Of a DNA stretch of 64,000 nucleotides, positions 15,001 to 18,000 are shown one piece after another. Location of the stretch: NCBI RefSeq assembly GCF_057098645.1, contig NZ_CM169472.1, one strand, 5' to 3'. Within the stretch, counting starts at the first letter, position 1, and each line of letters begins with the position of its first letter. A program made the position numbers.

Positions 15001-18000
15001 GTTAGCGCGCAGGGAGAAGAGGGAGGGACCCCGAACAGGGGAGTGCTATTTATCTGGAAGGATTCTGTTGATGAAAATCGAAGAATTACGTGAAATTTTT
15101 AGTGAAGATGGCCTCTACACTGCGTGAACCGCCCCGGGTTTCCTGGAGAGTGTTTTATCTGTGAACTCAGGCTGCCAGATCATCGTTTCCGATGGAAGCA
15201 TAATAAGCTTTTTCTGCTTCTGCCGGAGGAGTATGGCCCAGCCTTTCCAGCAATCGTCGATTGTTATACCAGTCCACCCACGTGAGTGTGGCCAGTTCCA
15301 CTTCTGCACGGTTTTTCCAGCTCTTACGGTGTATTACCTCCGCTTTGTAAAGACCATTGATGCTCTCCGCCATCGCGTTGTCATACGAGTCACCTGTACT
15401 CCCTGTTGATGCCAGCAGTTTTGCTTCTTTTAGTCGCTCCGTATAGGCCAGTGATACATACTGAGAACCTTTATCACTGTGATGGACTGTGCCGGACGGC
15501 CGACGGGCCCACAACGCCTGCTCCAGTGCATCCAGCACGAATGTCGTTTCCATAGACGATGAGACTCGCCACCCCACGATACATCCGGCAAACACATCAA
15601 TGATGAACGCCACATAGACGAAGCCCTGCCATGTGCTGACGTAAGTAAAATCAGCCACCCACAGCTGGTCAGGACGTTCTGCCACGAACTGACGGTTTAC
15701 GCGGTCGCCTGCGGAAACGGCTTTCCGGCTGACGGTAGTACGGACCTTTTTACCCCGGAGAACACCGGCAAGTCCCATAACCGCCATGAGACGTGCCACA
15801 GTGCATCTGGCCACTCTGATACCTTCCCGTAACAACTGACGCCAGACTTTACGCACACCGTATACCTTGTGATTTTCATCGTATACGCGCTGTATCTCTT
15901 TCTTCAGCCAGTCATCGCGCTGCGCACGGGCACTGCGTTTATCCGGATGATGTCGCTGTTGCTGACAGTGGTAATACGTTGACGGGGCAATATGCAGTTC
16001 GCTGCATAGCGGTCCGACCCCGTACTGCTCACGCAGCTTATCCAGCAGTGGCATCATTTTTTCCAGAGGCGGTCGAACTCCGCCTTCGCAAAATAAGCGG
16101 AAGCCTGGCGAAGGATATCGTTACTGCGGCGCAGTTCACGATTTTCACGCTCCAGCTCTTTCAGACGCTGACGTTCAGCGGTGGTGAGCCCTCCATCACC
16201 GCCCCCGGTATCCCGCTCATGCTGGCGAACCCAGACACGCAGAGTCTCCGGCGTACAGCCAATCTTTGGAGCAATGGAACAAATTGTCGCCCATTGTGAG
16301 TCATATTCGCCCTGACTTTCCAGAACCATACGGACTGCCCGTTGACGGACTTCAGGGGAAAAACGAGTATTTTTAGTCATCCTGTTTACCTCTTTCTCAG
16401 GAAGTTTAGTCTCCAGGATTCCCGGGGCGGTTCACCTTCAACGGAGGCATTTAATGCCATATGTAATGTAACCGATGCCATATCTCTTGATACATGGAAA
16501 AAAACAGTTAAACGTTTTTACGATACGCTGGTGGTGCAGTTTGATATTGAAGAAGCATGGGCAGAACAACAACTGAAAAAGGTGACCAGATAGCTTTGTT
16601 GATTTTTCCCGAATCTGTGGTAAATTTGCCCTAACGATGGGCGTTTTATGCCTGACGTTAGAAGATTTTTTACACCCGTCGCCAGGCGGGTTTTTTTATG
16701 ACTGAAATCACGCCAGTACAGTAAACGCGCTGGTGGTTGTGAATACCGGTCTTTCAGCTTGCTGGCTTTTTCGACAAGAGTTATTGGTGTGTCACGTTAA
16801 CCGGAAAAAGGAAAGTTTGAGAAACGCGATCTGGCACAGGCGGTTATTAATGCTGCCTACCTGGTGGCCTGTGCAGATGGTGAATGTGAGGCTTCCTAGA
16901 AAGCGAAGATCGAACAGGTACTGCGTAATCAGCCTGCGCTGTCCGCGTTTACGTCAGAAATTAATGCGATTAGCGCAACCATTATCGGTCAGCTGGATAC
17001 GAACTTTAAAATTGGTCGTCGTGCGGCGTTACGTGAGATCGAGGATGTGAAACACGATACGCGTGAAGCGGAAGATGTGCTGGATGTGGCGGTGGCCATT
17101 GCGGAGGCAGACGGCGAAATTGAGCCGGAAGAGCGCAAGGTGCTGGAAGAGATTGCCGGTGTTCTGGGTCTTCGTCTGGAGAATCACCAGTGACGGTAAA
17201 ACTGCGCCTGGCTGTGGCTGCACTCCTGCTGTTTCTGGTGGTGATGGTGGATTTCACCAGCAGAATCATGTCGGTGCTGGCGGATGGGGTGCTGGTCTGC
17301 GGCATTGTGGTATTGCTGTGGCCGGTGATAAAAAGAAACAGCCTGCATAATGCTTGATTTTTTTGTTTACTGTTTATTAAAAATACTACTGCATGGTGAA
17401 TCCCCCTGTGCGGAGGGGCAATCAGCAACCAGGTATATGTGATAATCGCGGATTCAGGTGCTGATACTGAATTCACCGGGAGGCACCCGGCACCATGCAA
17501 GAAAAAGAATGTGCATGCAAACATGCCCCTCTCCGGAGGGGCTTTTTTATGGGTAAAAAATGCCCGAATGGGTTCGGGCAATAGCATGAGATACTGATAT
17601 TGTTGTGTTGTTATCGTGTGGATTTTAACCAGGGTTTATCAGGCTGCGCAACTGCGTGGCCTTTTTTCATTTCTTGGGCTGTAGTCCCCGTGTGTCATTC
17701 AGGCTTCCGGACTACAGCCCACTCCATATCTGATTTAATACACTATCCCGGCCGGGAGGAATAATGACATTTAAACATTATGATGTTGTCAGGGCGGCGT
17801 CGCCGTCAGACCTTGCGGAAAAGCTGACACACAAACTGAAAGAGGGCTGGCAGCCGTTTGGTAGTCCGGTGGCCATAACCCCTTATACCCTGATGCAGGC
17901 GATTACAGCAGAAGGTGATGTGGTGGTCAGTGGTGCAACTGAGCCGGATTGGTACTACGTCATCGTACTGGCCGGGCAGTCCAATGCCATGGCTTACGGT

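What the first reader, a model, noticed from the sequence alone, without database searches (positions are those of the whole stretch)
15071..16593. IS629 splits a 70-codon phage ORF and lacks a target-site duplication
The 18 codons before the IS and the 52 codons after it are in the same frame once 1310 bp plus 3 bp are removed, suggesting one original small gene. The triplets flanking the IS differ (GCG left, CCT right), which hints at IS-mediated deletion or recombination between two copies, possibly removing neighbouring late-regulatory genes.
Basis: seen in the sequence. Interest (0 to 1): 0.35.

Follow-up and report, generated by a model that had tools for sequence, protein, structure and literature searches.

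The report
IS629-anchored deletion of prophage antiterminator Q
A mobile element (IS629) in a defective E. coli prophage marks a 2.65-kb deletion that fused the start of one small gene to the tail of the phage late-gene activator Q; this is an ordinary, well-known kind of prophage decay, not a split 70-codon gene.

Summary
A 1310-bp IS629 lies at 15125-16434, with 18 in-frame codons on its left and 52 on its right, and the flanking triplets differ (GCG / CCT). The "one 70-codon gene" reading is wrong. The left piece is codons 1-18 of an 86-aa rem-like gene. The right piece is the last 52 codons of a 273-aa antiterminator Q gene.

A near-identical prophage at the same potC/potB site in O145:H28 RM12761 still holds the DNA in between: the rest of rem, a small ORF, DUF968, rusA and Q codons 1-221.

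At least one O145 genome, RM9872, has the same IS joined on its right to the rest of rem (16 more give the same match). Together with the window's left junction, this reconstructs a normal insertion with a 3-bp GCG duplication. The window therefore shows a secondary deletion of 2,652 bp that starts exactly at the right IS end.

Sister strains show other outcomes at the same IS copy:
- a 25-kb rightward deletion;
- an 11.5-kb leftward deletion;
- IS loss leaving a 2-bp scar.

The mechanism is unresolved. It could be a one-ended transposase/IEE event (favoured) or recombination with a lost second IS copy. The phenomenon is known, and interest is low.

The parts
15071..15124 (+). 5' fragment (codons 1-18) of an 86-aa rem-like small prophage gene. 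As it stands, the ORF terminates on TGA, the first triplet of the IS.
   Evidence: Identical to the first 54 nt of the intact gene in strain 90-3040 (L001 4247-4507, WP_047088169.1). The homologue is annotated 'rem' in phage and E. coli records. It has no Pfam or NCBIfam family.
15122..15124 (.). Left copy (GCG) of the original 3-bp target-site duplication. The right copy was lost with the deletion.
   Evidence: Window left junction CTACACTGCG|IS plus RM9872 right junction IS|GCGCGCGTTGAG gives the intact CTACACTGCGCGCGTTGAG plus a GCG duplication.
15125..16434 (-). IS629/IS1203-group IS3-family insertion sequence, 1310 bp. orfA is 16380..16054 and orfB is 16057..15167, both on the minus strand.
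   Evidence: Terminal inverted repeats. NCBIfam transpos_IS3 for orfB (5e-93); Pfam HTH_Tnp_1 plus rve. 96-99% identical to thousands of annotated IS3/IS1203 copies. Same position and orientation as the copy in Z1323HEC0422 and RM9872.
15392..15737 (.). Mosaic patch inside the IS (IS positions 268-613). It holds 27 differences from the copy at this site in sister genomes and is identical to a pRM12581-type IS variant. This is a gene-conversion signature.
   Evidence: Other O145 copies carry shorter patches with the same left boundary (268-328, 268-364). No 100%-identical IS copy exists in 5,426 genomes.
16434..16435 (.). Novel deletion joint: the last base of the IS is joined to codon 222 of Q. 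2,652 bp are missing relative to the IS-bearing sister prophage.
   Evidence: Right flank is 1500/1500 nt identical to RM12761 from L007 7648. The missing segment is L008 4851-7502. No genome has an IS at this Q position. Junction microhomology is only 1 nt.
16435..16593 (+). 3' fragment of the antitermination protein Q gene: last 52 of 273 codons plus the stop.
   Evidence: 100% identical to the 3' end of annotated Q genes in many EHEC genomes. Pfam Antiterm PF03589 profile positions 36-87/87.
16594..16700 (+). Retained region downstream of Q, with terminator-like hairpins at 16627-16643 and 16674-16691 followed by T runs. Inferred to be the late-promoter/tR' region that Q would normally read through.
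   Evidence: Terminator scan. The function is inferred from the lambdoid Q / PR' / tR' arrangement (established knowledge) and was not tested.

Best explanation
**What happened (structural account).** An IS629 first inserted, in the usual way, into codon 18/19 of a small rem-like gene. The host is a lambdoid prophage integrated between potC and potB in an O145:H28-type E. coli. The insertion duplicated the triplet GCG.

Later, a second event removed 2,652 bp running from the right-hand tip of that IS to codon 222 of the antiterminator gene Q. The lost DNA comprises:
- the right-hand GCG copy;
- the rest of rem;
- a 92-aa ORF;
- the DUF968 gene;
- rusA;
- Q codons 1-221.

The IS stayed in place. 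This is why it now has unmatched flanks (GCG / CCT), and why a rem head and a Q tail happen to lie in frame.

**Consequence (inferred).** Without Q, the prophage cannot antiterminate late transcription. It is locked in the chromosome as a defective element that still carries the effector genes nleL, espN and espK.

**Mechanism of the second event (inferred, not shown).** I favour a one-ended, transposase-driven deletion of IS-flanking DNA, of the type promoted by the IS-excision enhancer IEE in EHEC (about 0.5-0.55). The alternative is a local second IS629 insertion in Q followed by homologous recombination between the two direct copies (about 0.35-0.4).

The 0.9 confidence applies to the structural account. 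The choice of mechanism is much less certain.
For: **Shown**
1. Each flank belongs to a different gene.
2. The RM12761/RM13516 prophage matches the window at 1495/1500 nt on the left and 1500/1500 nt on the right, and holds the intervening genes.
3. The window is collinear with that prophage from potC to potB. The chromosome flank differs at 1 of 5,427 nt.
4. RM9872 has the IS right end joined to the rest of rem (IS|GCGCGCGTTGAG) and an intact Q 2.65 kb downstream. Sixteen more O145 genomes give the same single-piece match. Combined with the window's left junction, this rebuilds a canonical 3-bp GCG duplication.
5. The left junction is shared with Z1323HEC0422/0399. These carry the same potC/potB prophage, and their right flank is window 39099, a 25.3-kb deletion.
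6. The window's right junction is unique among 5,426 genomes.
7. RM9872 has an 11.5-kb deletion from the other end of the same IS.
8. RM12761/RM13516 lack the IS but carry a 2-bp deficit exactly at its site. This allele was not seen in any other listed match; 678 genomes hold the segment.

**For the favoured mechanism**
- None of the three 'partner' insertions that the two-copy model needs exists in the collection.
- Junction microhomology is only 1 nt.
- Deletions from a few nt to more than 40 kb adjacent to the IS have been reported (PMC9943667).
- Only 21 of 47 IS629 sites in O157:H7 had matching duplications (PMC3271280).
Against: - No genome in the collection has the simple insertion with both junctions intact. 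The ancestral state is reconstructed from complementary halves.
- The source genome of the window is not in the collection. Its iee status and its other IS629 copies could not be examined.
- Failing to see a partner IS is weak evidence, because such intermediates can be short-lived. From my own knowledge, IS150-mediated rbs deletions in E. coli B were attributed to exactly that two-step route.
- IS629 does insert in the 3' part of this Q allele in the same orientation in other strains, at -130, -70 and +91 bp from the window's breakpoint. A second copy at this site is therefore plausible.
- The IS carries a recombination patch, so this copy has exchanged sequence with other copies.
- The copy-out-paste-in mechanism of IS3-family elements does not by itself predict donor deletions (bioRxiv 10.1101/2023.06.07.543989).
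Confidence: 0.9

Rival explanations
1. **Two-copy recombination.** A second IS629 inserted in the same orientation in Q, at ...GATTACCT|CCTTCA with a CCT duplication. RecA-dependent recombination between it and the rem copy then deleted the 2.65 kb plus one IS.
For: - Unmatched flanks are the classic signature of this route.
- IS629 has hit the 3' part of this Q allele three times independently in other strains, in the same orientation.
- The IS is a mosaic, which shows inter-copy recombination.
- Z1323HEC0422 shows that two direct IS629 copies can coexist in this prophage.
Against: - No genome of 5,426 has an IS at this Q position.
- The partner copies needed for the two sister deletions do not exist in the collection either.
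- The mosaic is an internal patch, with both IS ends of the resident type. A single crossover would give one switch point.
Confidence: 0.37
2. **First reader's headline.** A simple IS629 insertion split one ancestral 70-codon phage gene.
For: The two pieces are in frame once the IS is removed.
Against: - The joined sequence is contiguous in 0 of 5,426 genomes.
- The left piece is the head of an 86-aa gene and the right piece is the tail of a 273-aa Q gene.
- 2.65 kb lies between them in near-isogenic prophages.
- In-frame joining is a 1-in-3 coincidence.
Confidence: 0.01
3. **Assembly artefact.** The real genome has two IS629 copies flanking the 2.65 kb, and the assembler collapsed them.
For: IS629 is highly repeated in these genomes, with up to about 50 places per genome. 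The IS consensus is mosaic, which mixed-read polishing could produce.
Against: - The collapse would leave 2.65 kb of unique sequence unplaced.
- Comparable IS-anchored deletions are present in many independently finished genomes.
- The mosaic patch matches a real IS variant block, and partial versions of it occur in other finished genomes.
Confidence: 0.03
4. **Exchange between different prophages.** The right flank was brought in by recombination between IS629 copies that sit in two different lambdoid prophages.
For: EHEC genomes hold many similar lambdoid prophages. This Q allele occurs in several of them (up to 11 places per genome).
Against: Both flanks are essentially identical to one and the same prophage of RM12761, at 1495/1500 and 1500/1500 nt. 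The window is collinear with that prophage from potC to potB.
Confidence: 0.03

Closest known systems
IS629-associated deletions of IS-flanking DNA in EHEC, promoted by transposase plus IS-excision enhancer IEE. Kusumoto et al. 2011 as summarised in PMC9397093, PMC9943667 and bioRxiv 10.1101/2023.06.07.543989. The Ooka et al. 2009 'small-size structural polymorphisms' work is cited in PMC9943667.
   Same: - An IS3-family IS629 in a prophage of an EHEC-type strain.
- The deletion begins exactly at an IS terminus.
- The size falls within the reported range (a few nt to more than 40 kb).
- Sister strains show simple loss of the IS at the same site.
- iee is reported for O145:H28.
   Different: Dependence on IEE or transposase is not shown here. 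The IS is retained here, and I could not read the primary paper to confirm which deletion classes retain the IS.
Deletion by homologous recombination between two direct IS copies after a local hop. Example from my own knowledge: IS150-mediated rbs deletions in experimental E. coli B populations (Cooper et al. 2001).
   Same: One resident IS3-family copy serves as a fixed endpoint. The other endpoints vary. The IS is retained without a target duplication.
   Different: No second copy at any of the three variable endpoints was found in 5,426 genomes.
Defective lambdoid prophages of EHEC, including the potB-site prophage of O145:H28. [quoted passage not shown] The 'defective prophage pool' of O157 (Asadulghani et al. 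2009) is cited there.
   Same: The integration site (potC/potB), the effector cargo (nleL, espN, espK) and the pattern of lineage-specific deletions all match.
   Different: This particular rem-to-Q deletion allele is absent from all 5,426 complete genomes searched.

Membership tests
IS629 / IS1203 (IS3 family) | About 1310 bp with terminal inverted repeats beginning TGAACCGCCCCGGG | tested here: met
   1310 bp; inverted repeats matched 14/14, then 23/25. 96-99% identical over the full length to copies annotated as IS3-like / IS1203 family. The name IS629 itself rests on annotation and literature, not on an ISfinder comparison.
IS629 / IS1203 (IS3 family) | Two overlapping ORFs (orfA with an HTH domain; orfB with a DDE/rve domain) joined by a programmed frameshift | tested here: met
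   orfA hits Pfam HTH_Tnp_1. orfB hits rve and HTH_21, and NCBIfam transpos_IS3 at 5e-93. The ORFs overlap at 16054-16057. The frameshift and AL1L pseudoknot are annotated in sister copies.
IS629 / IS1203 (IS3 family) | 3-4 bp direct target duplication flanking the element (a feature of a simple insertion) | tested here: not met
   GCG on the left versus CCT on the right. The original GCG duplication is recovered only by combining the window with RM9872. Literature: only 21 of 47 IS629 sites in O157:H7 had matching duplications (PMC3271280).
Antitermination protein Q (Pfam PF03589) | Full-length Q with the Antiterm domain and an upstream zinc-ribbon region | tested here: not met
   Only the last 52 of 273 codons remain (profile positions 36-87/87). 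The intact sister protein hits PF03589 at 4.7e-50.
rem-like small prophage protein | Intact 86-aa ORF downstream of hokD | tested here: not met
   Only codons 1-18 remain. No curated family exists for the protein.
IEE/transposase-associated IS-flanking deletion | The deletion starts exactly at an IS terminus, with variable distal endpoints from the same IS copy | tested here: met
   Three different deletions are anchored on the two ends of the same IS copy: 2.65 kb and 25.3 kb rightward, and 11.5 kb leftward.
IEE/transposase-associated IS-flanking deletion | The host carries iee, and the event depends on transposase and IEE | not testable with these tools
   iee lies outside the 64-kb window, and the source genome is not in the collection. 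The literature states that O145:H28 carries SpLE1-like elements with iee (PMC9397093).
Deletion by recombination between two direct IS copies | A second IS copy at the distal breakpoint in relatives, or a single switch point inside the IS | tested here: not met
   0 of 5,426 genomes have an IS at the Q breakpoint, or at the two sister breakpoints. The IS shows an internal patch, not a single switch. Absence of a transient intermediate is weak evidence.

The most novel reading that the evidence does not exclude
The potC/potB prophage of the O145:H28 lineage preserves a natural allelic series at one IS629 copy:
- IS retained with a 2.65-kb rightward deletion (this window);
- IS retained with a 25-kb rightward deletion;
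- IS retained with an 11.5-kb leftward deletion;
- IS lost, leaving a 2-bp scar.

A second series lies in tail gene J. It pairs a simple insertion in one strain with an 11.8-kb deletion in another that ends within 0-2 bp of the insertion site, carries an 11-nt filler and lacks the IS.

If all of these arose without partner IS copies, the series would be field evidence that one-ended, IEE-type deletion is the main route of prophage decay in EHEC, rather than recombination between two copies. The window's allele would then be a previously unsampled member of the series.
Probability: 0.4. Interest if true: 0.3.

Novelty: new member of a known kind. Interest (0 to 1): 0.15.

Why it matters
- **Annotation.** There is no 70-codon gene here. 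The locus should be recorded as two pseudogene fragments (rem' and 'Q) around an IS629.
- **Biology.** Loss of Q, rusA and neighbouring genes makes this effector-carrying prophage (nleL, espN, espK) non-inducible for late functions. That fixes its cargo in the chromosome.
- **Typing.** The deletion is absent from 5,426 complete genomes, so it could serve as a strain or sublineage marker.
- **Mechanism.** The set of alternative outcomes at the same IS copy in sister strains offers a modest natural dataset for the open question of how IS3-family elements generate flanking deletions. It adds no new principle.

Tried and rejected
- **Contiguous 'empty site'.** Searched in E. coli genomes and in phage records. 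None was found, and the halves hit different genes.
- **The window's exact configuration (flank-IS-flank).** Absent from all 5,426 genomes, so the source genome and its other IS629 copies could not be inspected for reciprocal flanks.
- **A 100%-identical IS copy that could be the donor or partner.** None found; the best was 99.2%, on pRM12581.
- **Partner IS copies at the three distal breakpoints.** None found.
- **Exact-protein look-up of the 83-aa ORF spanning the novel joint.** Not on record in any assembly.
- **Primary papers.** Ooka 2009 and Kusumoto 2011 are not held in the library. I relied on later papers that summarise them. One literature query failed on syntax and one returned nothing.
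- **Late promoter.** The promoter scan did not flag one downstream of the Q remnant. The PR' assignment is therefore inference only.
- **Inversion or inter-prophage exchange.** Rejected, because both flanks are collinear with a single sister prophage.
- **tRNA scan.** No tRNA genes anywhere in the window.

Full report
**1. The observation**

The window holds a 1310-bp element at 15125-16434. Its inverted termini are TGAACCGCCCCGGG.... On the minus strand it has two overlapping ORFs:
- orfA, 16380-16054, Pfam HTH_Tnp_1;
- orfB, 16057-15167, Pfam rve, NCBIfam IS3-family transposase at 5e-93.

It is 96-99% identical to thousands of copies annotated as IS3-like / IS1203 family in EHEC genomes. That group is the one the literature calls IS629.

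To its left, ATG 15071 opens 18 codons. To its right, 52 codons plus a stop run to 16593. The two are in frame if the IS is removed, and the flanking triplets are GCG and CCT. The shared frame is a 1-in-3 coincidence. As the sequence stands, the left ORF ends at once on the TGA that begins the IS.

**2. The two flanks are not one gene**

I searched the joined flanks (300 + 300 nt) against 5,426 complete E. coli genomes.
- No record held them contiguous.
- The left half matched a small gene downstream of hokD. It is annotated 'rem' in several phage and E. coli records and is intact as an 86-aa ORF in strain 90-3040 (translation).
- The right half matched, at 100%, the 3' end of an 822-bp 'antitermination protein' gene.
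- Pfam agrees. The notional 70-aa fusion hits Antiterm (PF03589) only with residues 11-62, at profile positions 36-87 of 87. The intact 273-aa sister protein hits the family at 4.7e-50.

The canonical order in relatives is hokD - rem-like - small ORF - DUF968 - rusA - Q - (terB, DUF3927) - esterase.

**3. What is missing**

I repeated the search with 4 kb + 4 kb of joined flanks, so that pieces several kb apart would be joined. It found O145:H28 strains RM12761 and RM13516 at 100% coverage and 99.4% identity, with about 2.8 kb of extra DNA.
- Flank identity is 1495/1500 nt on the left and 1500/1500 nt on the right.
- The whole window is collinear with that strain's prophage between potC and potB. 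The adjoining chromosome differs at 1 of 5,427 nt.
- The DNA absent from the window comprises the rest of rem, a 92-aa ORF, DUF968, rusA and Q codons 1-221.
- In the IS-bearing sister RM9872 this segment is exactly 2,652 bp, including the right-hand duplicate triplet. It differs from RM12761 at 4 positions.

**4. The original insertion can be reconstructed**

Seventeen O145 genomes gave single-piece, full-length matches to 'IS right end + rest of rem'. I inspected only RM9872 in detail; the other 16 were not checked one by one.
- In RM9872 the junction reads IS|GCGCGCGTTGAG.
- The window's left junction reads CTACACTGCG|IS.
- Together they give the intact sequence CTACACTGCGCGCGTTGAG plus a 3-bp GCG duplication. 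This is the normal IS629 signature of 3-4 bp (PMC3271280).
- The IS copies at this site in RM9872 and Z1323HEC0422 are identical to each other.

The insertion in rem is therefore old and shared. The window's left junction is ancestral. Its right junction occurs in no other genome and is the derived one.

**5. Sister strains show other outcomes at the same IS copy**

| Strain(s) | State at the rem IS |
|---|---|
| This window | IS kept; 2.65-kb deletion rightward to Q codon 222 |
| Z1323HEC0422 / 0399 (same potC/potB prophage) | IS kept, same left junction; right flank is window 39099, upstream of ant; 25.3-kb deletion |
| RM9872 | IS kept, right junction intact; left tip abuts window 3624 inside the exonuclease gene; 11.5-kb leftward deletion |
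| RM12761 / RM13516 | IS absent; ...CTACAGCGCGCG... instead of ...CTACACTGCGCGCG... |

The RM12761/RM13516 allele is a 2-bp deficit exactly at the insertion point, and it frameshifts rem. It was not seen in any other listed match; 678 genomes hold the segment. An imprecise IS excision is the simplest reading of it.

As internal controls, the window's two other IS elements both show ordinary duplications when compared with the same sister:
- the IS21-family element at about 7624-10258 has a 6-bp ACAGGA duplication;
- the IS2 at about 54571-55902 has a 5-nt overlap.

**6. Mechanism**

Two routes give an IS with unmatched flanks and an adjacent deletion.

[quoted passage not shown] The reported sizes run from a few nt to more than 40 kb (PMC9943667). 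O145:H28 carries iee (PMC9397093).

*(b) A second IS629 insertion in Q, followed by recombination between the two direct copies.*

For (a):
- none of the three required partner insertions exists in 5,426 genomes;
- the joint has only 1 nt of microhomology;
- the lineage also shows an apparent excision scar.

For (b):
- IS629 has hit the 3' part of this Q allele three times in other strains, in the same orientation, at -130, -70 and +91 bp;
- intermediates can be transient;
- the window's IS has recombined with other copies.

On that last point, the window's IS differs from the resident copy at 27 positions, all within IS positions 268-613. That block is identical to a pRM12581-type variant. 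Both IS ends are of the resident type, and other O145 copies carry shorter patches with the same left boundary. The pattern looks like gene conversion rather than the single crossover that would have made the deletion, so it does not decide between the routes.

A review also notes that copy-out-paste-in transposition does not by itself predict donor deletions (bioRxiv 10.1101/2023.06.07.543989). I put (a) at about 0.5-0.55 and (b) at about 0.35-0.4.

**7. Consequences (inferred)**

Q is the late-gene antiterminator of lambdoid phages. With only its last 52 codons left, transcription should stop at the retained terminator-like hairpins just downstream, at 16627-16643 and 16674-16691. The prophage cannot then express its lysis and morphogenesis genes.

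It keeps its effector cargo. By transfer from the RM12761 annotation:
- nleL, 47698-50046;
- espN, 50637-54038;
- espK, 56683-58044.

This fits the published picture of the O145:H28 potB prophage as prone to deletions (PMC7067040).

**8. Verdict**

- The 'IS-mediated deletion removing late-regulatory genes' reading is supported.
- The phenomenon is well known in EHEC, where only 21 of 47 IS629 sites in O157:H7 had matching duplications (PMC3271280).
- This particular deletion allele is not in any of the 5,426 complete genomes searched, so it is a new member of a known kind.
- Interest is low.

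Noticed in passing
L007 4991-5002 (RM12761) versus window 15115-15124: The IS-free sister prophage has a 2-bp deficit (CT) exactly at the IS629 insertion point, which frameshifts rem. This allele was not seen in any other listed match; 678 genomes hold the segment. It looks like an imprecise IS629 excision scar.
   Followed up: yes
window 15392-15737 (IS positions 268-613): The IS is a mosaic. It has 27 clustered differences from the copy at the same site in sister genomes, and the block is identical to the IS on plasmid pRM12581. Other O145 copies carry shorter patches with the same left edge. This indicates gene conversion among IS629 copies.
   Followed up: yes
window 44255-44257 and 32415-44257; L013; L009 34230-34270: Z1323HEC0422 has a second IS629 in tail gene J, with a 3-bp CAG duplication. 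RM12761's 11.8-kb tail-gene deletion ends within 0-2 bp of that site, lacks the IS and carries an 11-nt filler (CTGGCCAGACT). This may be an IS-plus-flank deletion with filler synthesis.
   Followed up: partly
window ~7624-10258: An IS21-family element (IstA 7741-9387, IstB 9161-10159) sits in the early region with a 6-bp ACAGGA duplication. It is absent from RM12761.
   Followed up: partly
window ~54571-55902: An IS2 copy (TnpB 54581-55486, TnpA 55444-55854, minus strand) lies between effector-gene remnants. Its flanks overlap by 5 nt (CATCT) in RM12761, which lacks it.
   Followed up: partly
window 5104-5106: RM12761 carries another IS629 here, in inverted orientation with a 3-bp flank overlap. 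It disrupts a Rha/ash-family gene. The window has the empty site.
   Followed up: partly
window 16733-17193: The TerB-family gene downstream of the Q remnant has an in-frame stop (TAG at about 16897). It is likewise annotated 'internal stop' in RM12761, RM9872 and F690. There is no stx operon, methyltransferase or tRNA genes between Q and the esterase gene (17764-19614), and no tRNA anywhere in the window.
   Followed up: no
window 16342-16593: An 83-codon ORF starts (TTG) inside the IS end and reads out into the Q tail. It is not on record as a called gene in any assembly, and there is no evidence that it is expressed.
   Followed up: partly
Q gene 3' region (L005, and hits H186-H188): IS629 has inserted independently at three other positions within about 220 bp of this Q allele's 3' end, all in the same orientation (strains WL1277, F690 and UTAK-4). 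This is a possible regional hotspot.
   Followed up: partly
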